DNA of 64,000 bases. It comes from Escherichia coli (lineage in GTDB: Bacteria > Pseudomonadota > Gammaproteobacteria > Enterobacterales > Enterobacteriaceae). The stretch lies in the NCBI RefSeq assembly GCF_003018115.1, contig NZ_CP027457.1; one strand, 5' to 3'. Shown here one piece after another: positions 4,098-42,885 of this stretch. Position 1 is the first letter of the stretch. Each line of letters starts with the position of its first letter. The translations under genes were made by a program, and so were the position numbers. The notes below the pieces were generated by a model, which saw only the letters and a list, made by a program, of their open reading frames with translations, was not told the DNA's origin and made no database searches.

Positions 4098-4634
4098 ATG
4101 GAAAATCTCGCTCGCTTTTTATCCACCACACTTAAACAACTACGTCAGCAGCGCGGCTGGAGTCTTTCGCGACTGGCAGAAGCGACGGGCGTTTCTAAAG
4201 CAATGTTAGGACAGATTGAGCGTAATGAGTCCAGCCCGACGGTCGCGACATTATGGAAAATTGCCACTGGGTTGAACGTGCCCTTTTCGACATTTATTTC
4301 TCCGCCACAGTCCGCTACGCCTTCAGTTTATGATCCACAACAGCAGGCGATGGTGATCACTTCGCTGTTTCCTTATGATCCACAACTCTGCTTTGAACAC
4401 TTCTCGATTCAGATGGCACCCGGTGCAATAAGCGAATCGACGCCCCATGAGAAGGGGGTAATCGAACATGTCGTCGTCATTGATGGACAACTTGATCTGT
4501 GCGTTGATGGTGAATGGCAGAGCCTTAATTGTGGGGAAGGCGCTCGATTTGCTGCAGACGTCACGCATATCTATCGTAATGGTGGGGAGCAAATCGTACA
4601 TTTTCATTCCCTCATCCATTACCCGCGCAGTTAA
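4098..4634 (+). CDS. ydcN: HTH (XRE-type)/cupin-domain transcriptional regulator YdcN
   Basis: 178-aa ORF; N-terminal HTH (LSRLAEATGVSKAMLGQIERNESSP); divergent from ydcO. Confidence 0.8.
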   Translation: MENLARFLSTTLKQLRQQRGWSLSRLAEATGVSKAMLGQIERNESSPTVATLWKIATGLNVPFSTFISPPQSATPSVYDPQQQAMVITSLFPYDPQLCFEHFSIQMAPGAISESTPHEKGVIEHVVVIDGQLDLCVDGEWQSLNCGEGARFAADVTHIYRNGGEQIVHFHSLIHYPRS

Positions 4635-25078: not shown

Positions 25079-25897
25079 AAGGATAAATGGCGTTCTCTGT
25101 ATTTATTCGCAATTATCTGTAGGACAAATATGGAGAGCTTGATGAGTCAGAGCTAAAACAGCAATTGATTAATAAACATGTTGATTTATTCAAGAAAATG
25201 GATGTATTTTAAATGTTGATTCTTAATATAACCTAATCAATAGATTATCAAGTGAGAGCTACACATTATTGGAGGGGCAGGGGAAAACACCATTTTGGGA
25301 ACAATGCATCAGGTACTCTTACCACTGAAGCAAGATCATCCGGCACCAGGTGGTGGTGCAGTGCTTTGGAAATGGTCCCCTCGGGGGAGTTGTCATTATT
25401 TTCTATGCTATTTGCTTATTATATTCATCAGGTGAATTTAATAAATTCCTAATTTGAAATATCCACTATTAAGCTAGTGTTTAACGACGTTAAGATGGCA
25501 ATGTGCAGATCATGTTATCAGGGTGGGGCGGTAGCGTATATTCCTTATACAAACCATCATTCATTTCAATGATTGTTATTGAATTATTTATTGTTGTGAA
25601 TAAAAAGACATTATGAATATTGGTTTGACTTTGCATATCAGGTTTTTTATTACTCGCTGTAATGTACGAGCCTGTCGTGAATAACGTCGAGAACCCATCC
25701 GTTGCGTTTGTGATTATTTTGTTGACTAAACAGACACCCGTTTCTCTGAAGTAAAATCCCAGACTAAATCATCACATAACCATGACATTTTTCTGATATT
25801 CCCCGGTAACGCCAGATGTCGACTCGCTTATCTCATCCGCCCGACATGTTGTACATGCAATATGTGCGGATTATTATTCATTTTCACGGAGGTTGCT

Positions 25898-28006
25898 ATG
25901 TCAACCGGATTACGTTTCACACTGGAAGTGGACGGCCTGCCACCGGACGCTTTTGCGGTGGTTTCCTTTCATCTCACCCAGTCACTCTCTTCACTCTTTT
26001 CCCTCGATCTCTCCCTGGTCAGCCAGCAGTTTCTCTCCCTTGAATTTGCGCAGGTGCTGGACAAAATGGCCTACCTGACAATATGGCAGGGTGATGATGT
26101 ACAGCGCCGGGTGAAAGGTGTGGTGACCTGGTTTGAACTGGGGGAGAACGACAAAAACCAGATGCTGTACAGCATGAAGGTGCACCCGCCGCTGTGGCGT
26201 GCCGGTCTGCGCCAGAACTTCCGTATCTTCCAGAACGAGGACATCAAAAGCATCCTCGGCACGATATTGCAGGAAAACGGGGTGACCGAGTGGAGTCCGC
26301 TGTTCAGTGAACCGCATCCTTCCCGTGAGTTTTGTGTCCAGTACGGTGAGACTGATTACGATTTCCTGTGCCGGATGGCGGCGGAGGAAGGCATCTTCTT
26401 TTATGAGGAGCATGCTTACAAAAGTACCGACCAGAGCCTGGTGCTGTGCGACACGGTCCGCCATCTGCCCGAATCTTTTGAAATCCCCTGGAACCCGAAC
26501 CCCCGTACCGAGGTGAGCACCCTCTGCATCAGCCAGTTTCGCTACAGCGCACAAATCCGCCCTTCTTCCGTGGTGACCAAAGACTACACCTTTAAACGCC
26601 CCGGCTGGGCAGGACGTTTTGATCAGGAAGGCCAGCACCAGGATTACCAGCGCACGCAGTATGAGGTGTATGACTACCCCGGACGTTTCAAGGGCGCCCA
26701 CGGGCAGAACTTTGCCCGCTGGCAGATGGAGGGCTGGCGAAACAATGCAGAAACCGCGCGGGGAATGAGTCGCTCGCCGGAGATATGGCCGGGACGGCGA
26801 ATTGTGCTGACGGGGCATCCGCAGGCGAACCTGAACCGGGAATGGCAGGTGGTGGCGAGCGATCTTCACGGCGAACAGCCGCAGGCGGTACCGGGACGCA
26901 GGGGTTCAGGCACCACGCTGGATAACCATTTTGCGGTAATACCGGCAGACCGGACATGGCGACCACAGCCGTTGCTGAAACCGCTGGTGGATGGCCCGCA
27001 GAGCGCCGTCGTGACGGGACCGGCAGGCGAGGAAATCTTCTGCGACGAACATGGTCGCGTGCGGGTGAAATTTAACTGGGACCGCTATAACCCGTCAAAC
27101 CAGGACAGTTCATGCTGGATCCGTGTGGCACAGGCGTGGGCAGGCACCGGCTTTGGCAACCTGGCGATACCGCGTGTGGGTCAGGAGGTGATTGTGGACT
27201 TCCTCAACGGCGATCCGGACCAGCCGATTATTATGGGGCGTACCTACCACCAGGAAAACCGCACACCCGGCAGCCTGCCGGGGACGAAGACGCAGATGAC
27301 CATTCGTTCGAAAACCTATAAGGGCAGCGGGTTTAATGAACTGAAGTTTGACGATGCGACAGGGAAAGAACAGGTCTACATCCACGCGCAGAAGAACATG
27401 AACACCGAGGTGCTGAATAACCGCACCACGGATGTGATAAACAACCATGCTGAGACCATTGGCAACAATCAGATGATTGCGGTTACCAACAATCAGATAC
27501 AGACGGTGGGCGTTAACCAGATAGAGACGGTGGGCAGTAACCAGATCATTAACGTGGGTTCTGTTCAGGTGGAAACGATTGGACTTGTTCGTGCGCTGAC
27601 CGTGGGCGTGGCGTACCAGACGACGGTAGGTGGCATTATGAACACTTCGGTGGCTCTGATGCAGTCCTCGCAGATCGGTTTGCATAAATCGTTGAGGGTC
27701 GGGCTGGGTTATGACGTCAAAGTCGGAAATAACGTTACCTTCACCGTTGGTAAAACGAAAAAGGATGATACCGGGCAGACCGCGATTTACTCCGCCGGTG
27801 AGCATCTGGAGCTCTGCTGTGGTAAGGCAAAGCTGGTGCTGACAAAGGACGGTCAAATTTTTCTCAACGGCACAAAAATTCATTTGCAGGGTAAGGAGCA
27901 GGTTAATGGTGACTCACTGTTGATTAACTGGAACTGTGCAGCCTCGAAATCCCCACCGAAGACCCCTGATGAAAAGCAGGATACGCCGGATATGAGAGAG
28001 TACTGA
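25898..28006 (+). CDS. vgrG: Type VI secretion spike protein VgrG (Rhs-element vgr gene)
   Basis: Start at ATG 25898 (MSTGLRFTLEVDG...) after GGAGG; gp27/gp5-like regions and C-terminal Val-Gly repeats (IQTVGVNQIETVGSNQIINVGSVQVETIG). Confidence 0.85.
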   Translation: MSTGLRFTLEVDGLPPDAFAVVSFHLTQSLSSLFSLDLSLVSQQFLSLEFAQVLDKMAYLTIWQGDDVQRRVKGVVTWFELGENDKNQMLYSMKVHPPLWRAGLRQNFRIFQNEDIKSILGTILQENGVTEWSPLFSEPHPSREFCVQYGETDYDFLCRMAAEEGIFFYEEHAYKSTDQSLVLCDTVRHLPESFEIPWNPNPRTEVSTLCISQFRYSAQIRPSSVVTKDYTFKRPGWAGRFDQEGQHQDYQRTQYEVYDYPGRFKGAHGQNFARWQMEGWRNNAETARGMSRSPEIWPGRRIVLTGHPQANLNREWQVVASDLHGEQPQAVPGRRGSGTTLDNHFAVIPADRTWRPQPLLKPLVDGPQSAVVTGPAGEEIFCDEHGRVRVKFNWDRYNPSNQDSSCWIRVAQAWAGTGFGNLAIPRVGQEVIVDFLNGDPDQPIIMGRTYHQENRTPGSLPGTKTQMTIRSKTYKGSGFNELKFDDATGKEQVYIHAQKNMNTEVLNNRTTDVINNHAETIGNNQMIAVTNNQIQTVGVNQIETVGSNQIINVGSVQVETIGLVRALTVGVAYQTTVGGIMNTSVALMQSSQIGLHKSLRVGLGYDVKVGNNVTFTVGKTKKDDTGQTAIYSAGEHLELCCGKAKLVLTKDGQIFLNGTKIHLQGKEQVNGDSLLINWNCAASKSPPKTPDEKQDTPDMREY

Positions 28007-28073
28007 TCCCGTACCTGTTCGATATTCATTAACAAACCAGCATTAAAAATAAACAGAAGAAGGAATTTGAATC

Positions 28074-31000
28074 ATGAGCGGAAAACCAGCGGCGCGTCAG
28101 GGAGATATGACTCAGTATGGCGGTCCCATTGTCCAGGGTTCGGCAGGTGTAAGAATTGGCGCGCCAACTGGCGTGGCGTGCTCGGTGTGTCCGGGCGGGA
28201 TGACCTCGGGCAACCCGGTGAACCCGCTGCTCGGTGCAAAAGTACAGCCCGGCGAGACGGACCTTGCGCTGCCCGGCCCGCTGCCGTTCATTCTCTCCCG
28301 CACCTACAGCAGCTACCGGACCCGGACGCCTGCACCGGTGGGCGTTTTCGGCCCCGGCTGGAAAGCGCCTTCTGATATCCGCTTACAGCTACGTGATGAC
28401 GGACTGATACTCAACGACAACGGCGGGCGGAGCATTCACTTTGAGCCGCTGCTGCCAGGGGAGGCGGTGTACAGCCGCAGCGAGTCCCTGTGGCTGGTGC
28501 GCGGTGGTAAGGCAGCACAGCCGGACGGCCATACGCTGGCACGGCTGTGGGCGTCGCTGCCGCCGGATATCCGGTTAAGCCCGCATCTTTACCTGGCGAC
28601 CAACAGCGCACAGGGGCCGTGGTGGATACTGGGGTGGTCTGAGCGGGTGCCGGGTGCTGAGGACGTACTGCCAGCGCCGCTGCCGCCGTACCGGGTGCTT
28701 ACCGGGATGGCGGACCGCTTCGGGCGGACGCTGACGTACCGGCGTGACGGACGGTGCCGGGCGTGAGTTCCGTCTGGTGCTGACCACACAGGCGCAGCGG
28801 GCGGAAGAGGCCCGGCAGCAGGCGGTCGTCGCCGGAGCAAAACGACCGGACATTCCTGATTCACTGCCGGAGAGCACAGAGTACGGCCCCGACAGGGGTA
28901 TCCGTCTTTCAGCGGTGTGGCTGATGCACGACCCGGCATACCCGGAGAATCTGCCCGGTGCGCCACTGGCGCGGTACACGTATACGGAAGCCGGTGAACT
29001 GCTGGCGGTATATGACCGCAGCAATACGCAGGTGCGTGCTTTCACGTATGACCCGCAGCACCCGGGCCGGATGGTGGCGCACCGTTACGCGGGAAGGCCG
29101 GAGATGCGCTACCGCTACGACGATACGGGGCGGGTGGTGGAGCAACTGAACCCGGCAGGGTTAAGCTACCGCTATCTTTATGAGCAGGACCGCATCACCG
29201 TCACCGACAGCCTGAACCGGCGTGAGGTGCTGCATACAGAAGGCGGGGCCGGGCTGAAGCGGGTGGTGAAAAAAGAACTGGCGGACGGCAGCGTCACGCG
29301 CAGCGGGTATGACCCGGTGGGGCGGCTTACGGCGCAGACGGACGCGGCGGGACGGCGGACAGAGTACGGTCTGAATGTGGTGTCAGTCGACATCACGGAT
29401 ATCACCACGCCGGACGGGCGGGAGACGAAATTTTACTATAACGACGGGAACCAGTTAACGGCAGTGGTGTACCCGGACGGGCTGGAGAGCAGCCGGGCAT
29501 ATGATGAGCTGGACAGGCTGGTAACGGAGACATCGCGCAGCGGGGAGACAGTACGCTACCGCTATGATGATGCGCACAGTGAATTACCGGCCACAACAAC
29601 AGATGCGACGGGCAGCACCCGGCAGATGACGTGGAGCCGCTACGGTCAGTTGCTGGCGTTCACCGACTGCTCGGGCTACCAGACCCGCTATGAATACGAC
29701 CGCTTCGGCCAGATGACGGCGGTCCACCGCGAGGAAGGCATCAGCCTTTACCGCCGCTATGACAACCGTGGCCGGTTAATCTCGGTGAAAGACGCACAGG
29801 GCCATGAAACGCGGTATGAATACAACGCCGCAGGCGACCTGACTGCCCTCATTACCCCGGACGGCAACCGGAGCGAGACACAGTACGATGCGTGGGGAAA
29901 GGCGGTCAGCACCACGCAGGGCGGGCTGACGCGCAGTATGGAATACGACCTTGCCGGACGCATCACCACGCTGACCAACGAGAACGGCAGCCGGAGTGAG
30001 TTTACCTACGATGCGCTTGACCGGCTGGTACAGCAGCGCGGCTTTGACGGGCGGACGCAACGTTACCACTATGACCTGACCGGAAAACTCACGCAGAGTG
30101 AAGATGAGGGGCTTGTCACCCTCTGGCACTACGACGAATCGGACCGCCTCACTCACCGCACGGTGAACGGCGAACCGGCAGAGCAGTGGCAGTATGATGG
30201 CCACGGCTGGCTGACAGAAATCAGCCACCTGAGCGAAGGCCATCAGGTGGCGGTGCATTACGGTTATGATGATAAGGGCCGCCTGGCCGGGGAGCGCCAG
30301 ACGGTGCATAACCCGGAGACGGGGGAACTGCTGTGGCAGCATGAGACAGAGCACGCATACAACGAACAGGGGCTGGCAAACCGCGTCACGCCGGACGGCC
30401 TGCCGCGGGTGGAGTGGCTGACCTACGGCAGCGGTTATCTTGCGGGGATGAAGCTGGGCGGGACACCTCTGGTCGAGTATACGCGGGACCGCCTGCACCG
30501 GGAAACTGCGCGCAGCTTTGGTAACGGAACGGGCAGTACAGCCGCATATGAACTGACCAGCACTTACACCCCCGCAGGCCGGTTACAGAGCCAGCACCTG
30601 AACAGCCTGATGTATGACCGTGACTACGTGTGGAATGACAACGGCGACCTGGTGCGCATCAGCGGCCCGCGACAGACGCGGGAATACGGCTACAGCGCCA
30701 CGGGCAGGCTGGAGAGCGTGCGCACCCTCGCACCGGACCTGGACATCCGCATCCCGTATGCCACCGACCCGGCGGGAAACCGGCTGCCGGACCCGGAGCT
30801 ACACCCGGACAGCACGCTCACGGCGTGGCCGGATAACCGCATCGCGGAGGATGCGCACTATGTTTACCACTATGATGAATACGGCAGGCTGACGGAGAAG
30901 ACGGACCGCATCCCGGCGGGTGTGATACGGACGGACGACGAGCGGACCCACCACTACCACTACGACAGCCAGCACCGTCTGGTGTTCTACACGCGGATAC

Positions 31001-32250
31001 AGCATGGCGAGCCGCAGGTGGAGAGCCGCTACCTCTGTGACCCGCTGGGACGGCGAATGGCGAAACGGGTATGGCGGCGGGAGCGTGACCTGACAGGATG
31101 GATGTCGCTGTCGCGTAAACCGGAGGTGACGTGGTATGGCTGGGACGGAGACAGGCTGACGACGGTACAGACAGACCAGACCCGTATCCAGACGGTCTAC
31201 CAGCCGGGGAGCTTCACGCCGCTCATCCGTATCGAGACAGAGAACGGCGAACGGGAGAAAATGCAGCGCCGCAGCCTAGCGGAGAAGTTACAGTCGGAAG
31301 GGAGTGAGGACGGTCACGGTGTGGTGTTCCCGGCTGAGCTGGTGAGGATGCTGGACAGGCTGGAGGAAGAAATCCGGGCAGGCCGCGTGAGCAGTGAAAG
31401 CCGGGCGTGGCTTGCGCAGTGCGGGCTGACGGTGGAGCAACTGGCCAGACAGGTGGAGCCGGAATACACACCGGCGCGAAAAGTTCATCTTTATCACTGC
31501 GACCACCGGGGCCTGCCGCTGGCGCTCATCAGCGAAGACGGCAATACGGCGTGGCGCGGGGAGTATGATGAATGGGGCAACCAGCTTAATGAGGAGAACC
31601 CGCATCATGTGTATCAGCCATACCGCCTGCCGGGGCAGCAGTATGATGAGGAGTCGGGGCTGTACTATAACCGCAACCGGTACTATGATCCGTTGCAGGG
31701 GAGGTATATTACCCAGGATCCGATTGGGCCAGTGGGGGGGTGGAATCCCTATAGTTATGTGCTTAATAATCCAGCCCAGTTTATTGACCCAACAGGTTTA
31801 ACTCAAGAGGACAATTGGACCTATGGTGAGGTAGGTAATAGCTGTGTTACGAGTCAACGCGATTTTACTCCCCCGCCCGGACTTGCGGATATGAAAGCCA
31901 GCATTGGCGCTGCCTGCTCAAGAAACAATGCTTCCAGAAACTGCCACCCCGTAGATGGTAGTAATGCTTCTGCACCATCGGATAAAGCCGCATGGGAAAA
32001 TATTCAAAATGCGACAAATGGTAAAGATTTATCTGGTGGTGGAAATATGTTTTGTGTAGGAAATGAGGACTGTGCGGTTGTTCATAGCTGTCGTGAAATA
32101 GTTAATGCTCGACACCCGGCAGGACGAGTGCGTGAACGTGTAACTCCGTTAACAACGTCAGGAACAGCAACGCTCAATGGAACAACAGTTTACTTTTATA
32201 ATGATCCCCGGAATGGTAATTGTCCTGCTCACGAATATATTCCTCAATAA
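28074..32250 (+). pseudogene. rhsE: PAAR-Rhs polymorphic toxin, copy 1, split by a frameshift near 28740-28766 (ORFs 28074..28766 and 28744..32250)
   Basis: N-terminal PAAR-like region, YD-repeat core, DPxGL boundary. Relative to copy 2 about 38 nt (encoding ...[12 protein letters not shown]...) is missing, shifting the frame. Symbol by K-12 position only. Confidence 0.7.
31801..32250 (+). other. Rhs copy 1 C-terminal variable toxin domain (CT1), function unknown
   Basis: About 149 aa following DPTGL at 31786..31800; drop in GC content; Cys-rich; no motif recognised. Confidence 0.6.
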
Positions 32251-32300
32251 AGAAAGGTGGCCAGACTAAGCTCTAGCCACATTTTTTGGAGATCCTTTTC

Positions 32301-32924
32301 ATGAAAAGGTTTTTTATAACATGTTGCGTTATGACATTATTTTTATTTGTTAAATGTAAAGCAGCGTGTGTAACTTCCTTATATGAGGTTCAGCAATCGC
32401 TCTTTACATACATTTATTTGATTAGACAAGACCCTGTTCATTTTGATTCATATATTAAGAATGTGCATAACGAATTAAAAATATTCCATGATATTGATAA
32501 AGCCATGAATATAGCCTCAGATATGGTCAAAATTATTGATATAAAGACCCGTTTATCATTTAATAATGATTTATATATATTACAAGGGGAGCGACAGTAT
32601 GCAATAGTTAAGAGTGAAGGGGAAAGTAGTCAATTAAAATCATCAGCATTTATCATATCTAATTACCCACCATTTAAAAACAAAGTTCTGTTAATTTTAT
32701 CCGCTACTAGTCCCGTTCAGTTGGTTATATTGTCTTTTGATCAATGTCTTAATGTGGAGGTGTTATTTGATTCAATGTCTCCAGTTTTCGCTAAGTATAG
32801 AGAAGATATTAGTGCAACATTACCATTATGGAAGGTTATTTTGACAAAAAATGATATAGAATTATATGAGTACCATAGAACAAATCCATACTCACTTAAC
32901 AAATTATTGAGCATGTCAAAATAA
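32301..32924 (+). CDS. Putative immunity protein for Rhs CT1 (signal peptide/lipoprotein-like)
   Basis: AT-rich ORF directly downstream of rhs; start at ATG 32301 (MKRFFITCCVMTLFLF...) after GGAG; hydrophobic N-terminus with Cys. Confidence 0.6.
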   Translation: MKRFFITCCVMTLFLFVKCKAACVTSLYEVQQSLFTYIYLIRQDPVHFDSYIKNVHNELKIFHDIDKAMNIASDMVKIIDIKTRLSFNNDLYILQGERQYAIVKSEGESSQLKSSAFIISNYPPFKNKVLLILSATSPVQLVILSFDQCLNVEVLFDSMSPVFAKYREDISATLPLWKVILTKNDIELYEYHRTNPYSLNKLLSMSK

Positions 32925-33121
32925 CGGTCAAGTATTCAACGTTGTAATATTATTCCTTTTGCTGAGTGTCTCGAACGGCTAAAGTTGACGTAAAATGCCA
33001 CGTTTTGTGGGCAAACCGAATCGGTTAAAAAGCATGGTCCGGGAAAAGCTAAACATCAGCGCTATCGGTGCCAAATGTGCAGCAGGCCTTTCCAGCCTGA
33101 TTACCAGGGCAGGGCGGGATC

Positions 33122-34410
33122 AGGGAAAGATCATCAGAAGTTCACTTTTTGTACTAAATAATTTGCATTTTATATTTAAAAATTGAGATATTCCTCATTA
33201 CCTGAAGCTGTTTTTTATTGCTTATACATGATCAAATACTCCTTACATAATTAAGGAGAACAAAATGGAACTTAAAAAATTGATGGAACATATTTCTATT
33301 ATCCCTGATTACAGACAAGCCTGGAAAGTGGAACATAAATTATCGGATATTCTACTGTTGACTATTTGTGCCGTTATTTCTGGTGCAGAAAGCTGGGAAG
33401 ATATAGAGGATTTTGGTGAAACACATCTCGATTTTTTGAAGCAATATGGTGATTTTGAAAATGGTATTCCTGTTCACGATACCATTGCCAGAGTTGTATC
33501 CTGTATCAGTCCTGCAAAATTTCACGAGTGCTTTATTAACTGGATGCGTGACTGCCATTCTTCAGATGATAAAGACGTCATTGCAATTGATGGAAAAACG
33601 CTCCGGCACTCTTATGACAAGAGTCGCCGCAGGGGAGCGATTCATGTCATTAGTGCGTTCTCAACAATGCACAGTCTGGTCATCGGACAGATCAGGACGG
33701 ATGAGAAATCTAATGAGATTACAGCTATCCCAGAACTTCTTAACATGCTGGATATTAAAGGAAAAATCATCACAACTGATGCGATGGGTTGCCAGAAAGA
33801 TATTGCAGAGAAGATACAAAAACAGGGAGGTGATTATTTATTCGCGGTAAAAGGAAACCAGGGGCGGCTAAATAAAGCCTTTGAGGAAAAATTTCCGCTG
33901 AAAGAATTAAATAATCCAGAGAATGACAGTTACGCAATTAGTGAAAAGAGTCACGGCAGAGAAGAAATCCGTCTTCATATTGTTTGCGATGTCCCTGATG
34001 AACTTATTGATTTCACGTTTGAATGGAAAGGGCTAAAGAAATTATGCGTGGCAGTCTCCTTTCGGTCCATAATAGCAGAACAAAAGAAAGAGCCAGAAAT
34101 GACGGTCAGATATTATATCAGTTCTGTTGATTTAACCGCAGAGAAGTTCGCCACAGCAATCCGAAACCACTGGCACGTGGAGAATAAGCTGCACTGGCGT
34201 CTGGACGTGGTAATGAATGAAGACGACTGCAAAATAAGAAGAGGAAATGCAGCAGAATTATTTTCAGGGATACGGCACATCGCTATTAATATTTTGACTA
34301 ATGATAAGGTATTCAAGGCAGGGTTAAGACGTAAGATGCGAAAAGCAGCCATGGACAGAAACTATCTGGCGTCAGTCCTTGCGGGGAGCGGGCTTTCGTA
34401 ATCTTGCCCT
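33122..34410 (+). mobile_element. H-repeat (H-rpt, ISAs1-family) element, copy 1
   Basis: About 1.29 kb unit bounded by imperfect inverted repeats AGGGAAAGAT ... ATCTTGCCCT; three near-identical copies in the window. Confidence 0.8.
33265..34401 (+). CDS. ISAs1-family transposase (H repeat-associated protein), copy 1
   Basis: 378-aa [31 protein letters not shown]...; DDE-type transposase family. Confidence 0.85.
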
Positions 34411-35114
34411 GGGGCAACCTGCTTAATGAGGAGAACCCACATCACCTGTATCAGCCATACCGCCTGCCGGGGCAGCAGCATGATGAGGAGTCAGGGCTTT
34501 ATTATAACCGTCACCGGTACTATGACCCGCTACAGGGGAGGTATATCACCCAGGATCCAATCGGGCTAAGAGGTGAATGGAATCTGTATAAATATCCATT
34601 AAACCCTGTTCGGTTTATAGATTCTTTGGGTTTAAAATTCCATGTTAACGGTGATCCAAGTGATTTTAATCAGGCTGTTGAGTATTTAAAACAAGATTCA
34701 CGAATGAAAGAAGCTATAGATTTTTTATCAAGCTCTGAAGAAACCATAAAGATAGAGTATATTGATGAAACCGACGTTAGATTTGACCTGGATAAAATGA
34801 CTATATATTGGAATAGTAAGGCGGCTTTATTTTGTTCAACTGATTTAAAATCGAAATCACAATCACCTGCATTAGGTTTGGGGCATGAGTTTGCTCATGC
34901 GCACTTATATCTTATTGATAAGGATGGTTATATGGGGCTTGTGAGACGTGCGGATGAACAATATAAAAATAAAGAAGAGGCGAGAGTTATCACTTTAATT
35001 GAACAGCATGCGGCGAAAACTTTAGGTGAGTGTACCAGAACAGCATATAATGGAGTGTATTATCGTGTGAATACACCAACGCAGACGGCAACAATAAATG
35101 GCACGCCAGAATAG
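34404..35114 (+). CDS. Orphan Rhs C-terminal fragment with HExxH (zincin-like metallopeptidase) toxin domain (orphan CT-a)
   Basis: Begins at the H-rpt right end with the rhs core 3' end ([18 protein letters not shown]...DPIGL...[13 protein letters not shown]), then a divergent domain containing [10 protein letters not shown]; probably lacks its own start codon. Confidence 0.65.
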
Positions 35115-35575
35115 TGAGATTTTTCATGATGAAATATTTGATGGCTTTATTGTCTCTATTTTCTGCTTCGGTATTGGGGATGGGGCGAGTGAATGATTTA
35201 TGTGGAATAGATAGTGTGAAAACGATAGAAATAATTAATCTTCCAGCATATGTTACCACCTTAACCCCGCTTAGCAAGGAAGGTCTCAAGAGAATATACA
35301 AACATAAAGTGGTGGTGAATGGGGTTAGCGATTTTTATGCTGGTGAGATAATTGATCTATTGCAAATGAAGTATTTCAGGAAGGAGGAGGATAACGATAT
35401 AAGATGGGGGGTTAACATTGTTTCGAATAAAAATAATAAATGTGAAATTTATTTTGATGGTTTTGGTGAATGTGGAAGCGTGAATGGCATTAATGTATGT
35501 TTTGAAAAAAATGAAATGATATATTGGATTAAAAAAGAAATCCCTTTTCTGTCGCAAGAAATAGATGGGCTTTAA
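35114..35575 (+). CDS. Putative secreted immunity protein for orphan CT-a
   Basis: ORF overlapping the toxin stop; likely start at ATG about 35126 (MMKYLMALLSLFSASVLG..., signal peptide); AT-rich. Confidence 0.6.
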   Translation: MRFFMMKYLMALLSLFSASVLGMGRVNDLCGIDSVKTIEIINLPAYVTTLTPLSKEGLKRIYKHKVVVNGVSDFYAGEIIDLLQMKYFRKEEDNDIRWGVNIVSNKNNKCEIYFDGFGECGSVNGINVCFEKNEMIYWIKKEIPFLSQEIDGL

Positions 35576-35651: not shown

Positions 35652-38600
35652 ATGAGCGGAAAACCGGCGGCGCGGCAGGGCGACATGACCCGCAAGGGAC
35701 TGGATATTGTGCAGGGTTCAGCGGGTGTGCTGATAGGTGCGCCGACGGGAGTGGCCTGTTCGGTGTGTCCGGGAGGGATTACCTATGCTAACCCGGTGAA
35801 CCCGGTGCTGGGTGCGAAGGTGCTGCCGGGCGAGACGGACCTTGCGCTGCCCTGCCCGCTGCCGTTTATTCTTTTCCGCGCCTACAGCAGCTACCGGACC
35901 AGAACACCCGCGCCGGTGGGGGTGTTTGGTCCCGGCTGGAAAGCGCCCTTCGATATCCGCTTACAGATACGCGATGAAGGCCTGATACTCAACGACAGCG
36001 GCGGCAGGAGCATTCACTTTGAGCCGCTGTTTCCCGGCGAGATAAGCTACAGCCGCAGCGAGTCACTCTGGCTGGCGCGGGGCGGAGTAGCGGCGCAGCA
36101 CAGTTCGCAGCCGCTAAGCGCGCTCTGGCAGGTGCTGCCGGAAGATGTTCGCCTGAGTCCGCATGTGTACCTGGCGACAAACAGCCTTCAGGGGCCGTGG
36201 TGGATACTCAGCTGGCCGGAGCGGGTGCCGGGGGCGGACGAGGTGCTGCCGCCGGAGCCGCCCGCATACCGGGTGCTGACGGGCGTGGTGGACGGCTTCG
36301 GGCGGACGCTGGCCTTTCACCGGGCAGCGGAGGGTGACGTGGCGGGCGCGGTGACGGGGGTGACGGACGGCGCGGGCCGCCGTTTTCACCTGGTGCTGAC
36401 CACACAGGCGCAGCGGGCGGAAGAGGCCCGTAAACCGCACACCGCTTCGTTATCTTCCCCTGACAGTCCCCGCCCTCTCTCAGCTCCTTCCTTCCCCGAC
36501 ACGCTGCCCGCCGGTACAGAGTACGGTGCCGATAACGGTATCCGGCTGGAGGCGGTATGGCTGACACACGACCCGGCATACCCGGATGAACAGCCGACTG
36601 CGCCGCTGGCGCGCTACACGTACACGGCCGGTGGTGAACTGCGGGCGGTGTATGACCGCAGCGGGACGCAGGTGCGCGGGTTTACTTATGATGCGGAGCA
36701 CGCCGGGCGGATGGTGGCGCACCATTATGCGGGTAGGCCGGAGAGCCGCTACCGGTATGATGATACCGGTCGGGTGACGGAGCAGGTCAACCCGGAGGGG
36801 CTGGACTACCGCTTTGAGTACGGAGAGAGCCGGGTAATCATCACGGACAGCCTGAACCGGCGGGAGGTGCTGTACACGGAAGGCGAGGGTGGCCTGAAGC
36901 GGGTGGTGAAGAAGGAGCATGCCGACGGGAGCATCACCCGCAGCGAGTATGATGAGGCGGGGAGGCTGAAGGCGCAGACGGATGCGGCGGGGCGGCGGAC
37001 GGAGTACCGGCTGCATATGGCGTCTGGAAAGCTGACTTCAGTGGTACTGCCGGACGGCAGGACGGTACGGTATGGTTACAACAACCAGTTGCAACTGACG
37101 TCAGTGACATATCCGGATGGTTTACGCAGCAGCCGGAAATATGACCGTCAGGGCAGGCTGGCGGAAGAGACCTCGCGCAACGGTAACATTACGCGCTGGT
37201 TTTATGATTCTTCCCGCAGTGGCCTGCCCTGTGCGGTGGAAGACGGAACCGGGGTGAGGCGGAGAATAACGCGAAACCGGTACGGTCAGCTTCAGGCGTT
37301 TACGGACTGCTCGGGGTACACGACGCGGTATGAGTATGACCGGTACGGTCAACAAATCGCCGTTCACCGGGAAGAAGGCATCAGCACTTACAGCAGTTAT
37401 AACCCGCGCGGTCAACTGGTCAGTCAGAGGGATGCGCAGGGGCGTGAAACCCGTTATGAGTACAGCGCCGCAGGAGACCTGACAGCAACGGTATCACCGG
37501 ACGGTAAACGCAGCACCATCGCATATGATAAACGCGGGCGTCCGGTGAGTGTGACGGAAGGCGGTCTGACGCGCAGCATGGGGTATGACGCTGCCGGGCG
37601 CATCACCGTGCTGACCAACGAGAACGGCAGCCAGTCCACGTTCCGGTATGACCCGGTTGACAGGCTGACTGAACAGCGCGGTTTTGACGGCCGGACGCAA
37701 CGTTACCACTATGACCTGACCGGAAAACTCACACAGAGTGAAGACGAGGGGCTTATCACCCTCTGGCACTACGATGCGTCGGACCGCATCACGCACCGGA
37801 CGGTGAACGGCGACCCGGCAGAGCAGTGGCAGTATGATGAGCACGGGTGGTTAACCACCCTCAGCCATACCAGTGAAGGCCACCGCGTGTCGGTCCACTA
37901 CGGCTATGACGATAAAGGCCGCCTGACCAGTGAGCGCCAGACGGTGGAGAACCCGGAGACGGAGGAACTGCTGTGGCAGCATGAGACAGAGCACGCATAC
38001 AACGAGCAGGGGCTGGCAAACCGCGTCACGCCGGACAGCCTGCCGCCGGTGGAGTGGCTGACGTATGGCAGCGGCTATCTGGCGGGCATGAAGCTGGGCG
38101 GGACGCCGCTGCTGGAGTTCACGCGCGACCGCCTGCACCGTGAGACGGTGCGCAGCTTCGGCAGCAGGGCAGGCAGTAATGCCGCATATGAACTGACCAG
38201 CACATACACCCCCGCAGGCCAGTTACAGAGTCAGCACCTGAACAGCCTGGTATATGACCGTGACTACGGGTGGAATGACAACGGCGACCTGGTGCGCATC
38301 AGCGGCCCGCGACAGACGCGGGAATACGGCTACAGTGCCACGGGCAGGCTGGAGAGCGTGCGCACCCTCGCACCGGACCTGGACATCCGCATCCCGTATG
38401 CCACGGACCCGGCGGGCAACCGGCTGCCGGACCCGGAGCTGCACCCGGACAGTACCCTCACAGTGTGGCCGGATAACCGCATCGCGAAGGATGCGCACTA
38501 TGTTTACCACTACGATGAATACGGCAGACTGACGGAGAAGACGGACCGCATCCCGGCGGGTGTGATACGGACGGACGACGAGCGGACCCATCACTACCAT

Positions 38601-39845
38601 TACGACAGCCTGCACCGCCTGGTCCATTACATCCGTATCCAATATGAGGAGCCACTGGTGGAGAGCCGCTACCTCTATGATCCGCTGGGCCGCCGGACGG
38701 GTAAACGGGTGTGGCGGCGGGAGCGTGACCTGACGGGGTGGATGTCGCTGTCGCGTAAACCGGAGATGACATGGTACGGCTGGGACGGAGACCGCCTGAC
38801 GACGGTACAGACAGACACCACGCGAATCCAGACGGTCTACCTGCCGGGGAGCTTCACGCCGCTCATCCGCATCGAAACGGAGAACGGCGAACGGGAGAAA
38901 GCGCAGCGTCGCAGTCTGGCGGAGAAGTTACAGTCGGAAGGGAGTGAGGACGGTCACGGTGTGGTGTTCCCGCCTGAACTGGTGATGATGCTGGACAGGC
39001 TGGAGGGAGAGATACGGGCAGACCGCGTGAGCCGTGAAAGTCGCCAGTGGCTGGCGCAGTGCGGACTGACGGTGGAGCAACTGGCCAGACAGGTGGAGCC
39101 GGAATACACACCGGCGCGAAAAGTTCATCTCTATCACTGCGACCACCGTGGCCTGCCGCTGGCGCTCATCAGCGAAGACGGCAATATAGCGTGGAACGCG
39201 GAGTATGATGAGTGGGGCAACATGCTGAACGAGGAGAACCCGCATCACCTGTATCAGCCATACCGCCTTCCGGGTCAGCAGTACGATGAGGAGTCGGGGC
39301 TGTACTATAACCGGAACCGGTACTATGATCCGTTGCAGGGGAGGTATATCACCCAGGACCCGATAGGGCTGATGGGGGGATGGAACCCTTACCTTTATCC
39401 GTTAAATCCTGTCACAAATACTGACCCTCAGGGGTTAGAAGCGATTCTTCCTGGTCCGTTCCCCTTCCCAATTCCATTGCCAAAAAGTCCTGTACAGCAG
39501 GAAGCAGATGCAAATGCAGCAAAAACATTGACAAAATGGTGGAAAAACTTTGGAGATGCCATTAATAATCCGCCACCTCCTGGTAATTGTTCTAATGATT
39601 ATTATGAACATCTGAAAAATCAAAAAGAAGCTATTTGCAACCAAAAAAGAAAGTGTTACCCAACCGATAGTTGTGAAACTATACTTCAGAAAGGTGTGTA
39701 TGGTCTTGCTTGTGTATCAGCAAGGAATAATATTATGAATCAATGTTTTAATGGAGGTGATTTACGGCATCAGCTTGAAAGAGAAACGGTCAGGGGAACT
39801 ATGATGTCATGTACTACATTGGCTGTAATAAAAGGATGTTTATAA
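35652..39845 (+). CDS. Intact PAAR-Rhs polymorphic toxin, copy 2 (1397 aa)
   Basis: AAGGA Shine-Dalgarno; N-terminal PAAR-like region (CSVCPGG), YD repeats, conserved ...PxxxxDPxGL boundary (DPQGL at 39423..39437), variable C-terminus. Confidence 0.9.
39438..39845 (+). other. Rhs copy 2 C-terminal toxin domain (CT2), Cys-rich, function unknown
   Basis: About 135 aa after DPQGL; Pro-rich linker then Cys-rich segment (CSNDYYEHL...[14 protein letters not shown]...CVSARNN...C); AT-rich. Confidence 0.6.
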
Positions 39846-40370
39846 ATGGGAAAAGACGAGATCATAGATTATATTCAGAAAACGTTTTCTGAATATCCAG
39901 ATTATTTGAAAAATGGGGTCGTTGATGAAGACAACATTGCATATTGCCATGACGCTATAAACCTTTTTTCTGGAAAGAGTTGGATTGAATTAATGGCCAG
40001 TGATCTTTACCATTCTGAAGATGCTGTCATGTGTCTCACTAAACCAGCATTCTCATATTATATTGCAGCCTATTTAAAACTTTTTATTGAAAATTATTAC
40101 GAAGCTGATGCTTTAGTGGATACTATTTTAAATATGCTCACTCCTCCTGTTAGGAATGGTATCCCCAGCACTACATGGATAGCAAAAAATCTTGATTGCT
40201 TTAGTCGTAATAAAAGGGTGGCTATTTCTTTTACATTCCAATATTTATGTAATGAATATAATGATCCAAATACTGAAAAGGCGTTAAATATATATTGGGG
40301 ACAGTATCTGAATGAATCATTGCTTATTAAAAATGTACAGAACTCTAAAAATAAATGTAAATCACAGTAA
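39846..40370 (+). CDS. Putative cytoplasmic immunity protein for Rhs CT2
   Basis: 174-aa ORF whose ATG overlaps the rhs stop (TAAATG); no signal peptide; AT-rich. Confidence 0.65.
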   Translation: MGKDEIIDYIQKTFSEYPDYLKNGVVDEDNIAYCHDAINLFSGKSWIELMASDLYHSEDAVMCLTKPAFSYYIAAYLKLFIENYYEADALVDTILNMLTPPVRNGIPSTTWIAKNLDCFSRNKRVAISFTFQYLCNEYNDPNTEKALNIYWGQYLNESLLIKNVQNSKNKCKSQ

Positions 40371-40374
40371 GACA

Positions 40375-40575
40375 GAATCAAGCAGAAATCGTGGGCGTGG
40401 TTCGCACCCTGACGGAGGGTGTAGCGTGTACTAGATCACAGTGAGCGACATCAAAGCTTGGTCACGTTCTGGCATTACGATGAAGCCGACCGCCTGACGC
40501 ACCGTACCGTGAATGATGAAGATGCCGAGTGCTGGCAGTACAACGAACGGGGCTAGCTGACGGAAAAAGACGAGC
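40375..40575 (+). repeat. Degenerate vgrG-like and rhs-core-like sequence relics
   Basis: 40380..40440 translates to ...EIVGVVRTLTEGVA... (VgrG VG-repeat-like); 40455..40570 translates to [32 protein letters not shown]-stop (Rhs core-like, compare 30115..30230). Confidence 0.55.
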
Positions 40576-40582
40576 AGCGCAT

Positions 40583-41870
40583 AGGGAAAGATCATCAGAA
40601 GTTCACTTTTTGTACTAAATAATTCGCATTTTATGTTTAAAAATTGAGATATTCCTCATTACCTGAAGCTGTTTTTATTGCTTATACATGATCAAATACT
40701 CCTTACATAATTAAGGAGAACAAAATGGAACTTAAAAAACTGATGAAACATATTTCTATTATCCCCGATTACAGACAAGCCAGGAAAGTAGAACATAAAT
40801 TGTCAGATATTCTACTGTTGACTATTTGTGCCGTTATTTCTGGTGCAGAAGGCTGGGAAGATATAGAGGATTTTGGGGAAACACATCTCGATTTTTTGAA
40901 GCAATATGGTGATTTTGAAAATGGCATTCCTGTTCACGATACCATTGCCAGAGTTGTATCCTGTATCAGTCCTGCAAAATTTCACGAGTGCTTTATTAAC
41001 TGGATGCGTGACTGCCATTCTTCAGATGATAAAGACTTCATTGCAATTGATGGAAAAACGCTCCGGCACTCTTATGACAAGAGTCGCCGCAGGGGAGCGA
41101 TTCATGTCATTAGTGCGTTCTCAACAATGCACAGTCTGGTCATCGGACAGATCAAGACGGATGAGAAATCTAATGAGATTACAGCTATCCCAGAACTTCT
41201 TAACATGCTGGATATTAAAGGAAAAATCATCACAACTGATGTGATGGGTTGCCAGAAAGATATTGCAGAGAAGATACAAAAACAGGGAGGTGATTATTTA
41301 TTCGCGGTAAAAGGAAACCAGGGGCGGCTAAATAAAGCCTTTGAGGAAAAATTTCCGCTGAAAGAATTAAATAATCCAGAGCATGACAGTTACGCAATCA
41401 GTGAAAAGAGTCACAGCAGAGAAGAAATCCGTCTTCATATTGTTTGCGATGTCCCTGATGAACTTATTGATTTCACGTTTGAATGGAAAGAGCTGAAGAA
41501 ATTATGCGTGGCAGTCTCCTTTCGGTCAATAATAGCAGAACAAAAGAAAGAGCCAGAAATGACGGTCAGATATTATATCAGTTCTGCTGATTTAACCGCA
41601 GGGAAGTTCGCCACAGCAATCCGAAGCCACTGGCACGTGGAGAATAAGCTGCACTGGCGTCTGGACGTGGTAATGAATGAAGACGACTGCAAAATAAGAA
41701 GAGGAAATGCAGCAGAATTATTTTCAGGGATACGGCACATTGCTATTAATATTTTGACGAATGATAAGGTATTCAAGGCAGGGTTAAGACGTAAGATGCG
41801 AAAAGCAGCCATGGACAGAAACTATCTGGCGTCAGTCCTTGTGGGGAGCGGGCTTTCGTAATCTTGCCCT
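40583..41870 (+). mobile_element. H-repeat (ISAs1-family) element, copy 2
   Basis: Same terminal sequences as copy 1. Confidence 0.8.
40725..41861 (+). CDS. ISAs1-family transposase (H repeat-associated protein), copy 2
   Basis: 378-aa ORF nearly identical to copy 1 with a few substitutions. Confidence 0.85.
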
Positions 41871-42486
41871 GCCAGGGCAGCAACACGATGAGGAGTCGGG
41901 GCTGTATTATAACCGTCACCGGTACTACGATCCGTTGCAGGGGTGGTATATCATCCAGGACCCGATTGGGCTGAAGGGGGGATGGAATCTGTACCAATAT
42001 CCGCTGAATCCAGTGCAACACGTTGATCCATTAGGGCTTAGTACTATGATAATAGGTAACGGCCCCGTTCCTGATAATCCTTTTGGGCATGCTGCGGCGG
42101 CAAATCGATATGGATTAATGAGTTCGGGAACTGGGGATGAGATGGGAGCCTCTGTCTCTGATTATTTTAAAAAGATGCAACCCCGCAGAGATACCTGGAT
42201 TTGGATAATAGATACAACAGATGAAGAAGAACAATGTATGATGAATAAGGCAATAGACCTTAATAAAAAACTAAAAACTATTAACCTCGGGCCTCTTCCT
42301 GTTTTAAATAATTGTTTTAGCCGAACGAACATGATTTTTGAGGCGTGCGGGTTTAACAACCCCTCTATGAATACAAATGCGCCTATAAGCCTACAAGTGC
42401 TCGGTGAGCTTTATGGATATCAAAGATATATTATGCCTAAAGGTCCTTTCACTGGATTCCCATTTGAATTTCAAGAGGTAAAGTAA
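41839..42486 (+). CDS. Orphan Rhs C-terminal fragment with unknown toxin domain (orphan CT-b)
   Basis: From the H-rpt right end: [35 protein letters not shown]...[13 protein letters not shown], then a divergent about 149-aa domain ([10 protein letters not shown]..., two Cys). Confidence 0.6.
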
Positions 42487-42885
42487 ATGGAAATGCTTGG
42501 GAAGATATTATTGATAATTATTTCCATGATAATTATATCTTGTGATTATTATAATGCTGGCATGGACTATCAAGATAATATAGCCCTCGAGCAAGTCGTA
42601 ACATGGGATTCTGATAATATATTCACACCTAATATCTTTGAACATAATGGAAGATGTTTTATGAAGAAAAATGAAACATGGATGTTATTAAATGGAGATG
42701 CAACACCAAACATTAGAACAATGAGCAATAAGAAAATAGAATGCCTGGAGAAGAGTGAAGTAGAATGGGCTAGTAGGGTTTGCGACAGTATCACAGACAA
42801 GGAAAGGGAAAATCTGAAGGCATTAATATGTAGCAAACCAGCTAAATCAGTTAATACAGGCAAAAGACCAGCGTTAGGATATTGA
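42487..42885 (+). CDS. Putative lipoprotein immunity protein for orphan CT-b
   Basis: 132-aa ORF abutting the toxin stop; N-terminal hydrophobic segment ending in a lipobox-like IISC. Confidence 0.6.
   Translation: MEMLGKILLIIISMIIISCDYYNAGMDYQDNIALEQVVTWDSDNIFTPNIFEHNGRCFMKKNETWMLLNGDATPNIRTMSNKKIECLEKSEVEWASRVCDSITDKERENLKALICSKPAKSVNTGKRPALGY

What the first reader, a model, noticed from the sequence alone, without database searches (positions are those of the whole stretch)
40375..40575. Scrambled relics of a divergent vgrG and rhs core between imm2 and H-rpt copy 2
About 60 nt translate to a VgrG VG-repeat-like peptide and about 115 nt to an Rhs core-like peptide roughly 75 percent identical to the 30115..30230 region, with an in-frame stop. 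The divergence suggests they come from a different Rhs subfamily, a footprint of past recombination.
Basis: seen in the sequence. Interest (0 to 1): 0.45.

Follow-up and report, generated by a model that had tools for sequence, protein, structure and literature searches.

The report
Decayed vgrG–rhs stub after imm2
The 212 bases between the imm2 immunity gene and the second H-rpt insertion sequence are a dead, heavily deleted leftover of a Citrobacter-like vgrG–rhs gene pair that arrived together with the toxin/immunity cassette and was then cut short by the insertion sequence. This is ordinary debris of an Rhs locus, not a working element.

Summary
Window 40373-40451 is homologous to the C-terminal repeat region of vgrG: it scores above 500 of 500 shuffles against two vgrG genes. 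Window 40452-40561 is an Rhs core piece, 73% identical to 30111-30220, with an in-frame TAG at 40554-40556. It is joined to the second piece through an 11-nt YD-repeat microhomology.

The three pieces lie in native vgrG-then-rhs order, so the relic is internally deleted rather than scrambled. It ends at 40582, and ISEc1/H-rpt copy 2 starts at 40583.

The same imm2-stop/vgrG' junction and vgrG'/rhs' junction recur downstream of imm2 homologues in contigs from other enterobacterial genera. In those contigs the cassette is 88-93% identical to the window while housekeeping genes are 76-78% identical. In one contig (L007) the rhs' part continues into a full orphan: core 3' end, Ntox16 toxin and immunity gene. 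The fragment is therefore the 5' stub of an orphan module imported with the Ntox16/imm2 cassette.

Its closest intact relatives are Citrobacter Rhs and VgrG genes. It diverges no more slowly than imm2 third codon positions and carries a frameshift and a stop codon. I found no regulatory or RNA signal in it. Interest is low.

The parts
39372..39845 (+). C-terminal toxin domain of rhs2 (Ntox16), the left part of the imported cassette
   Evidence: Pfam Ntox16 E=1.9e-12. Other E. coli Rhs cores stop matching at about 39428-39446. The homologous cassettes in L005 and L019 begin at 39375 and 39212 respectively.
39846..40370 (+). imm2, the putative immunity gene of the Ntox16 toxin (weak DUF6714 match)
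   Evidence: 174-aa ORF. There are 14 homologue clusters at 66-99% identity. Pfam DUF6714 scores E=0.0046, below the curated cutoff.
40373..40451 (+). S1: vgrG-derived piece, about codons 553-580 of C. freundii VgrG (568-592 of the window's VgrG), starting 2 nt after the imm2 stop codon
   Evidence: Shuffle test 0/500 against two vgrG genes. blastx 14/18 to CfVgrG aa 555-572. The L005 copy is in frame and 16/24 identical to the window's VgrG.
40426..40429 (+). 2-bp GT insertion (GTGT where the relatives have GT) that shifts the vgrG' reading frame
   Evidence: Alignments with L005, L019, L007 and both vgrG genes.
40452..40561 (+). S2: Rhs core piece with two YD repeats, about codons 687-724 of C. 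freundii Rhs (699-735 of rhs2)
   Evidence: blastn 73% to 30111-30220. blastx 29/38 (76%) to CfRhs aa 688-725. 84% nt to C. freundii rhs and 82% to C. amalonaticus rhs. Breakpoints.
40554..40556 (+). In-frame TAG stop (TGG in L005 and in intact Rhs genes)
40551..40561 (+). 11-nt microhomology GGCTAGCTGAC at which two YD repeats of the parent Rhs core were joined, deleting about 650 nt
   Evidence: Both C. freundii repeats carry GGC(T/A)GGCTGAC, at L002 about 8057-8067 and about 8711-8721. The two segments also lie about 650 nt apart in C. amalonaticus.
40562..40582 (+). S3: first 21 nt (..EKDEQRI) of a downstream Rhs core segment, about codons 943-949 of C. freundii Rhs. It continues in L005, L007, L010 and L018 but is cut here.
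   Evidence: Alignment with L005, which continues for about 320 nt more of Rhs core. It matches the 'GRLTEKDERGIRDGGSHSH' type of the S. bongori Rhs P0016 and C. freundii rhs L002 8697-8736 at 80%.
40583..41871 (+). H-rpt / ISEc1 copy 2 (ISAs1 family), which truncates the relic. Its left end lacks the terminal C of the CAGGG terminus seen in the other copies.
   Evidence: Alignment of the left and right ends of three window copies plus an E. coli 042 copy. Pfam DDE_Tnp_1 and DDE_Tnp_1_assoc on ORF 40725-41861. PGAP calls it an ISAs1 family transposase.
41872..42885 (+). Orphan rhs 3' core end plus CT (41872-42486) and its putative immunity ORF (42487-42885), to the right of the IS. It is not contiguous with the relic: about 250 core codons are missing between them.
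   Evidence: The core part is 84-86% identical to the resident cores and 76-78% to the L007 orphans.

Best explanation
The 212 bp at 40371-40582 are a non-functional fossil. They are the 5' stub of an orphan vgrG'-rhs' module that is physically linked to the Ntox16-CT/imm2 toxin-immunity cassette.

Inferred history:
1. In a Citrobacter-like enterobacterium, an rhs-CT(Ntox16)/imm2 pair lay upstream of a vgrG-rhs pair.
2. One deletion joined the imm2 stop codon to about codon 553 of vgrG.
3. A second deletion joined about codon 580 of vgrG to about codon 687 of rhs.
4. A third, in-frame deletion between two YD repeats (11-nt microhomology) removed about 216 rhs codons.
5. The resulting unit (CT, imm2, vgrG', rhs' and onward) spread horizontally among Enterobacteriaceae. 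It replaced the tip of rhs2 at the RhsE locus (yncH-pptA) of the E. coli O169:H41 lineage, by C-terminal displacement.
6. In this lineage ISEc1/H-rpt now abuts the stub after the seventh codon of the third piece, and the rest of the orphan is gone. The cause was either insertion with an adjacent deletion or recombination between H-rpt copies.
7. A 2-bp insertion and a TGG-to-TAG change accumulated afterwards.

Shown directly: the homologies, the breakpoints, the shared junctions in other genera, the IS boundary, and a rate of divergence consistent with neutrality. Inferred: the order of the deletions, the direction of transfer, and how the IS removed the distal part.
For: Locus and rarity:
- The window is the RhsE locus (yncH..pptA) of E. 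coli O169:H41-type strains. CT, imm2 and the relic occur in only 5 of 5,426 complete E. coli genomes.

The same relic elsewhere:
- It follows imm2 homologues in L005/L006, L019, L012, L013/L014, L015, L010, L018 and L007. All share the same imm-stop/vgrG' junction, and those long enough share the same vgrG'/rhs' junction.
- L005 continues past the window's IS breakpoint with about 320 nt more of Rhs core.
- In L007 the rhs' part is a 436-aa ORF with RHS and Ntox16 domains, followed by an immunity-sized ORF.

Independent erosion from a fuller ancestor:
- L009 keeps vgrG aa about 583-652, joined to S3 at 'DGG'.
- L008 jumps to Rhs aa about 1109.
- L019 is cut at the window equivalent of about 40470 by an element encoding HTH and DDE_3 transposase domains.

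Horizontal transfer:
- The cassette is 88% (L005) and 93% (L019) identical to the window, while their housekeeping genes are 75.6% and 77-78% identical to E. coli.

Parent subfamily:
- S2 is 82-84% nt identical to Citrobacter rhs, against 73-79% for the E. coli cores.
- The peptide RTVNDE..E.WQYNERGW occurs, among 100,044 species representatives, only in two Citrobacter genomes.

No sign of function:
- S1 identity is no higher than imm2 third-codon-position identity in five pairs.
- Different copies carry different indels and stops.
- No promoter, terminator or Rfam signal lies inside the relic.
- The longest exact match to the resident rhs or vgrG genes is 12 nt.

IS boundary and a modern analogue:
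- The IS boundary is exact at 40582/40583.
- In strain F9792 a 2.5-kb deletion at this same locus fuses vgrG to rhs1 (window 26608 joined to 29131), which PGAP annotates as two pseudogenes.
Against: - No genome was found that still has the proposed intact ancestor, imm2 followed by a full vgrG-rhs pair. The imm2 family is absent from all GTDB species representatives.
- The best Citrobacter parents are only 82-84% identical, so the true donor lineage is unidentified.
- C. freundii carries the same CT/imm pair (imm gene 89% nt identical to the window's) with no relic after it, so linkage is not universal. The relic could have been added to the cassette later rather than being ancestral to it.
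- The YD-to-YD junction is inferred to be a deletion by comparison with five Rhs cores. A parent that natively lacks those 216 codons is not excluded.
- Most supporting contigs are short, unnamed metagenome or SRA assemblies.
Confidence: 0.85

Rival explanations
1. Decay in situ: a second, divergent vgrG-rhs pair once sat at this E. coli locus downstream of imm2, and was deleted and shuffled here by local recombination.
For: - The locus is a mosaic with three H-rpt copies, an IS1 fragment and orphan CT/immunity pairs.
- A vgrG-rhs deletion fusion is segregating at this very locus in strain F9792.
Against: - The identical imm-stop/vgrG' and vgrG'/rhs' junctions, and in L005 the S2/S3 junction too, are present in contigs whose housekeeping genes are only 76-78% identical to E. 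coli. The junctions therefore predate arrival in E. coli.
- The pieces are collinear, not shuffled.
Confidence: 0.07
2. Retained functional element: the vgrG'/rhs' stub is kept because it serves the cassette. It might act as a 3' homology arm for capture next to vgrG-rhs loci, as a 3' UTR or terminator for imm2, or as a small ORF (for example the minus-strand 54-aa ORF at 40431-40595).
For: - The stub directly abuts the imm2 stop codon in at least 8 sequence variants that span 73-100% imm identity.
- It is a GC-rich island (55%) within AT-rich DNA.
Against: - S1 diverges as fast as or faster than imm2 third codon positions: 90 vs 94%, 78 vs 90%, 73 vs 84%, 70 vs 72.5%, 72 vs 72%.
- Copies differ by a 2-bp insertion, an 11-bp deletion, a 66-nt deletion, stops and IS truncations.
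- No terminator or promoter lies inside the stub, and no Rfam family matches.
- The longest exact match to resident genes is 12 nt. From my own knowledge, not tested here, efficient RecA recombination needs about 25 nt.
- The minus-strand ORF runs into the IS and is broken by the indels in L005.
- C. freundii keeps the CT/imm pair without the stub.
Confidence: 0.05
3. Chance resemblance, or part of the insertion sequence: the similarity is fortuitous, or the 212 bp belong to, or were transduced by, H-rpt/ISEc1.
For: - The vgrG-like peptide match to the resident VgrG is short (10/16).
- megablast hits of other E. coli H-rpt copies appeared to begin 18 nt left of the IS end.
Against: - The shuffle tests gave 0/500, and the Rhs piece scores E=3e-12.
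- Orthologous copies in other contigs keep longer in-frame VgrG and Rhs sequence.
- Alignment of four ISEc1 left ends shows homology starting only at 40583. The 18-nt extension was a spurious blast extension.
- In L005 the relic continues with Rhs core and no IS.
Confidence: 0.01

Closest known systems
Orphan ('dissociated') rhs core-fragment/CT/immunity modules downstream of full-length rhs genes, as in the C-terminal displacement model (Jackson et al. 2009, PMC2935791; also Poole et al. 2011, PMC3150448)
   Same: - It lies just downstream of a full-length rhs and its immunity gene, in a GC-poor tail, as a GC-rich partial core.
- Its homologue in L007 is a complete orphan: core 3' end, Ntox16 CT and immunity gene.
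- Such fragments are described as silent and often frameshifted, and core fragments without any associated tip are also reported.
   Different: - In the published pattern the orphan's core is nearly identical to the upstream rhs core. Here it is only 62-71% aa identical and belongs to a Citrobacter-like subfamily.
- It carries a vgrG-derived piece at its 5' end.
- In the window it has lost the PxxxxDPxGL region, the toxin and the immunity gene to an IS.
H-rpt (ISEc1, ISAs1 family) elements embedded in E. coli Rhs elements next to partial core sequences. This was described for K-12 RhsB, RhsC and RhsE by the Hill laboratory. I recall it from memory and those papers were not read here.
   Same: An H-rpt copy sits between an upstream Rhs-derived fragment and a downstream 3' core/CT/immunity unit. 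Three copies in direct orientation occur in one Rhs locus.
   Different: The fragment to the left of this H-rpt is foreign (Citrobacter-like) and includes vgrG sequence. No target-site duplication is visible, and the terminal C of the IS is missing, so the present junction is probably secondary.
vgrG'-rhs' pseudogene fusion by deletion at the same locus in E. coli F9792 (tssI pseudogene A5T63_RS08265 and RHS pseudogene A5T63_RS08270)
   Same: A deletion joins the interior of vgrG directly to the interior of rhs in native order, leaving two pseudogene stubs.
   Different: The F9792 fusion is recent, keeps kilobases of both genes and involves the resident E. coli genes. The relic is old, keeps only 79 + 110 + 21 nt, and derives from a different subfamily.

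Membership tests
Orphan rhs-CT/immunity module (dissociated tip) | [quoted passage not shown] | tested here: met
   It follows rhs2 (35652-39845) and imm2 (39846-40370).
Orphan rhs-CT/immunity module (dissociated tip) | Contains the 3' end of the core with the hyperconserved PxxxxDPxGL region, followed by a CT toxin domain | tested here: not met
   The window copy ends at Rhs codon about 949 at the IS boundary. The homologue in L007 does have RHS and Ntox16 domains.
Orphan rhs-CT/immunity module (dissociated tip) | Followed by a cognate immunity gene | tested here: not met
   ISEc1 follows directly at 40583. L007 has a 161-aa ORF after the orphan CT.
Orphan rhs-CT/immunity module (dissociated tip) | Core fragment (nearly) identical to the core of the rhs gene immediately upstream (Jackson 2009) | tested here: not met
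   23/37 aa and 79% nt over 52 nt to rhs2. The longest exact match is 12 nt.
VgrG / TssI gene | Open reading frame with the gp27-like and gp5-like domains and the C-terminal beta-helix repeats | tested here: not met
   Only about 26 codons, homologous to VgrG aa about 553-580, are present, and they are frameshifted by +2 bp. This is a fragment derived from a vgrG, not a gene.
Rhs core (YD-repeat shell) | Sequence homology to the YD-repeat core at a defined position | tested here: met
   76% aa to C. freundii Rhs aa 688-725, and 71% and 62% to the resident cores at the equivalent position.
Rhs core (YD-repeat shell) | Intact ORF encoding a complete shell | tested here: not met
   About 44 codons in all, with a TAG at 40554-40556 and an internal deletion of about 216 codons. 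Pfam RHS_repeat scores only E=0.096 on the longer L005 peptide.
ISEc1 / H-rpt (ISAs1 family) | The sequence lies inside the element's terminal inverted repeats and is shared by other copies | tested here: not met
   Four copies align only from 40583 onward, and their left flanks are unrelated.

The most novel reading that the evidence does not exclude
The vgrG' stub that abuts the imm2 stop codon in at least eight diverged cassette variants might not be mere debris. It could be the surviving right-hand homology arm of a cassette-exchange mechanism, in which a toxin/immunity unit is swapped by a double crossover: left in the rhs core, right in the next vgrG-rhs module of a tandem array. If so, Rhs tips would spread as units defined by 'core...CT-imm...vgrG'.
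Probability: 0.05. Interest if true: 0.5.

Novelty: new member of a known kind. Interest (0 to 1): 0.15.

Why it matters
Mainly for annotation and locus history. It explains a GC-rich, unannotated or 'hypothetical pseudogene' patch (PGAP tag A5T63_RS27035) in the RhsE locus of ETEC O169:H41. It shows that the Ntox16/imm2 tip of rhs2 was acquired horizontally as a block with its downstream debris, probably from a Citrobacter-like donor. It also gives a marker, the three junctions, for tracing that cassette across Enterobacteriaceae. It illustrates, with several independently eroded copies, how orphan Rhs modules decay through YD-repeat microhomology deletions, vgrG-to-rhs deletions and IS truncation. 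It reveals no new mechanism.

Tried and rejected
- **Protein search with the L005 relic ORF.** It returned only 3 hits: itself, a partial S. bongori Rhs at 69%, and a JGI Rhs at 58%. The word-indexed search missed even the C. freundii Rhs, so it could not be used to find the parent.
- **Peptide-pattern scan of GTDB species representatives for the imm2 family.** 22 pattern matches, none confirmed. No named genome gave context.
- **Degenerate DNA scan for the S2 peptide.** Only two Citrobacter genomes matched, both 81-82% identical. This names the subfamily but not the donor.
- **Shared left flank of H-rpt.** Many E. coli megablast hits began at 40565, which suggested this. The alignment showed it was a spurious extension.
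- **Are the relic and the orphan to the right of H-rpt 2 two halves of one module split by a simple insertion?** Rejected. About 250 core codons are missing between them, there is no target duplication, and the right-hand core piece is no closer to the L007-type orphan (76-78%) than to the resident cores (84-86%).
- **Functional readings.** The promoter/terminator scan, the Rfam search and the comparison with imm2 third codon positions gave no support for any of them.

Full report
**Setting.** The window is the RhsE locus (yncH ... pptA) of an E. coli O169:H41-type (ETEC) chromosome. In window coordinates the layout is:
- vgrG 25862-28006
- a PAAR-like N-terminal rhs ORF 28074-28766, overlapping the rest of rhs1 at 28744-32250
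- imm1 32286-32924
- H-rpt/ISEc1 copy 1, about 33122-34412
- an orphan rhs 3' end/CT 34404-35114 with an immunity ORF 35114-35575
- full-length rhs2 35652-39845, whose tip is an Ntox16 toxin domain
- imm2 39846-40370
- the finding, 40371-40582
- H-rpt copy 2, 40583-41871
- another orphan CT 41872-42486 with an immunity ORF 42487-42885
- H-rpt copy 3, 42918-about 44208, then pptA

The Rhs-like part aligns to rhs1 (40456-40566 against 30111-30220) at 73% over 111 nt, E=3e-12. Its translation, [37 protein letters not shown], matches rhs1 aa 455-492 at 27/38 and rhs2 aa 699-735 at 23/37. The stop is TAG at 40554-40556.

The vgrG-like part is weak as a peptide match to the resident VgrG (10/16). 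As DNA it aligns to the orthologous position of both the resident vgrG and a Citrobacter freundii vgrG, with scores that none of 500 dinucleotide-preserving shuffles reached (30.5 vs 10.5 +/- 1.4, and 17.5 vs 10.5 +/- 1.2). The alignment shows a 2-bp GT insertion at 40426-40429 that breaks the frame. A related copy in L005 lacks that insertion and reads QAEIVDVVRALTDGVAYQSTVGDI, 16/24 identical to the window's VgrG aa 569-592.

**Anatomy at nucleotide resolution.**
- S1, 40373-40451, is vgrG codons about 553-580 in C. freundii numbering. It begins 2 nt after the imm2 stop codon.
- S2, 40452-40561, is Rhs core codons about 687-724.
- S3, 40562-40582, is Rhs core codons about 943-949 (LTEKDEQRI).

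S2 and S3 are joined inside an 11-nt stretch, GGCTAGCTGAC, that both YD repeats of Citrobacter Rhs genes share. In C. freundii and C. amalonaticus (nt), and in the L005 and E. coli Rhs proteins (aa), the two segments lie about 650 nt (about 216-220 codons) apart. I therefore read this junction as an in-frame deletion between YD repeats. All three pieces are on the same strand and in native vgrG-then-rhs order, so the relic is internally deleted, not scrambled.

The relic ends at 40582. Alignment of the three H-rpt copies and an E. coli 042 copy shows that IS homology begins at 40583 (AGGGAAAGATC...). Copy 2 lacks the terminal C of the CAGGG end that the others have. The right IS end is at 41871, followed directly by ...[14 protein letters not shown] of an Rhs 3' core.

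**Where else is it?** Among 5,426 complete E. coli genomes the 212 bp occur only in five O169:H41-type genomes, at 100% identity. The next best match is 78.6%, to an Rhs core. The CT and imm2 are equally restricted: other E. coli Rhs genes stop matching at about 39430-39446.

Searching with imm2 found 14 homologue clusters. I fetched their contigs and scanned metagenomes with a degenerate imm2 3'-end pattern. The relic is a regular companion of this immunity gene:
- L012 is identical to the window as far as the contig goes.
- L019 carries a cassette 93% identical to the window.
- L005/L006 are 88% identical.
- L013/L014, L015, L010, L018 and L007 have imm proteins 73-89% identical.

All have the same imm-stop/vgrG' junction, and those long enough have the same vgrG'/rhs' junction.

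**What the longer copies show.**
- In L005 the relic runs on past the window's IS breakpoint for about 320 nt of further Rhs core...IRDGGSHSHYYHYDNRHR...[11 protein letters not shown].... This is the type seen in a Salmonella bongori Rhs.
- In L007 the rhs' part is an intact 436-aa ORF with RHS and Ntox16 domains, followed by a 161-aa ORF. L018 is the same arrangement with frameshifts.

The fragment is thus the 5' end of an orphan rhs-CT/immunity module that happens to carry a vgrG-derived piece at its head.

**Independent erosion.**
- L007, L010 and L018 lack about 66 nt between the first and second YD repeat of S2.
- L009 keeps a different vgrG segment (aa about 583-652, 83% nt to C. freundii vgrG), joined to S3 at 'DGG'.
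- L008 jumps from the first few vgrG' bases to Rhs aa about 1109.
- L019 is cut at the equivalent of window about 40470 by an element whose ORFs carry HTH and DDE_3 transposase domains.
- L005 has an 11-bp deletion in S2, a lost imm stop codon and an early stop in imm.
- C. freundii (L002-L004, L021) has the CT/imm pair on a full-length rhs with no relic after it.

Together these point to a fuller ancestor, imm2 | vgrG(553 onward) ... rhs, that has been whittled down differently in different lineages.

**Horizontal transfer and origin.** The housekeeping genes in L005 (nadA-pnuC-zitB) are 75.6% identical to E. coli, and those in L019 (ligA, yfeH, xapAB) are 77-78% identical. Both contigs therefore come from other genera. 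Their cassettes, relic included, are 88% and 93% identical to the window and sit at different chromosomal sites. So the relic's junctions predate its arrival in E. coli, and it was imported with the Ntox16/imm2 tip.

S2 is 84% nt (76% aa) identical to C. freundii Rhs and 82% to C. amalonaticus Rhs, against 73-79% nt (62-71% aa) for the E. coli cores. Its diagnostic peptide occurs, among 100,044 species representatives, only in two Citrobacter genomes. The exact donor was not found.

**Function.** Nothing points to one.
- S1 is no better conserved than imm2 third codon positions in five comparisons.
- Copies differ by frameshifts, deletions, stops and IS truncations.
- No promoter- or terminator-like site falls inside the relic, and no Rfam family matches.
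- The longest exact match to the resident rhs or vgrG genes is 12 nt. From general knowledge this is too short for efficient homologous recombination, so the stub cannot act as an orphan-activation substrate here. In any case nothing is left downstream of it to activate.
- PGAP annotates part of it (window 40452-40553) as a partial 'hypothetical protein' pseudogene.

**How it fits what is known.** Jackson et al. 2009 describe GC-poor regions downstream of rhs genes holding fragmentary cores and displaced tips, silent and often frameshifted, including core fragments with no associated tip. They explain these by insertion of exogenous tips, which they call C-terminal displacement. This fragment belongs to that kind.

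It differs in three details:
- Its core piece is foreign to the upstream rhs rather than near-identical to it.
- It has a vgrG-derived head.
- It fails the tests for being an orphan module itself, having no DPxGL region, toxin or immunity gene.

A present-day analogue of the vgrG-to-rhs deletion is visible at this same locus: strain F9792 lacks window 26609-29130, which fuses vgrG to rhs1.

**Verdict.** The corrections are that the pieces are collinear rather than scrambled, that there are three of them, that the relic was imported ready-made with the cassette, and that ISEc1 truncates it. It is a new example of a well-known kind of Rhs-locus debris, and interest is low.

Noticed in passing
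window 39871-39896: A perfect 26-nt palindrome, ATATTCAGAAAACGTTTTCTGAATAT, lies in the 5' part of imm2 (codons 9-17, YIQKTFSEY). It is perfect in the window, L009 and L019, has 1 arm mismatch in L002, L013, L014 and L021, and has 2-4 in the more distant homologues, with no compensatory changes seen. By my rough estimate (4^-13 x 64,000 positions), about 1e-3 such palindromes are expected by chance in 64 kb. Its function is unknown.
   Followed up: partly
window 26609-29130 vs L001 (E. coli F9792) about 5832-5838: Strain F9792 has a 2.5-kb deletion relative to the window that fuses vgrG (about codon 249) to rhs1 through about 7 nt of overlap. PGAP annotates the products as tssI and RHS pseudogenes. 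The vgrG-rhs1 region of F9792 is also only 97.4-98.3% identical to the window, although the imm2/relic region is 99.8-100% identical.
   Followed up: partly
window 28074-28766 and 28744-32250: rhs1 appears split. A 230-aa PAAR-like N-terminal ORF ([17 protein letters not shown]...) overlaps the start of a 1168-aa ORF carrying the rest of the core, which suggests a frameshifted rhs1 in this strain.
   Followed up: no
window about 32966-33116: A partial, frameshifted IS1 transposase fragment (PGAP annotation of the equivalent F9792 position) sits between imm1 and the left end of H-rpt copy 1.
   Followed up: no
window 40580-40585: H-rpt copy 2 starts AGGGAAAG..., preceded by T, whereas copies 1 and 3 and an E. 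coli 042 copy start CAGGGAAAG.... The terminal base of the left inverted repeat is missing or mutated, and no target-site duplication flanks any of the three copies.
   Followed up: partly
window 35652-39430: Over the 3' part of its core that I tested (38600-39446), rhs2 is only 87-89% identical to the best Rhs core in any other complete E. coli genome (RhsD-like). The whole rhs2 gene, not just its tip, may therefore be a recent import. I did not test the rest of the gene.
   Followed up: no
L007 1-5745: This contig carries two successive Ntox16-type CT/immunity units and at least two further rhs 3'-core fragments (about 3186-3505 and 4196-4495), that is, an array of orphans built on related toxins.
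   Followed up: no
   Followed up: partly
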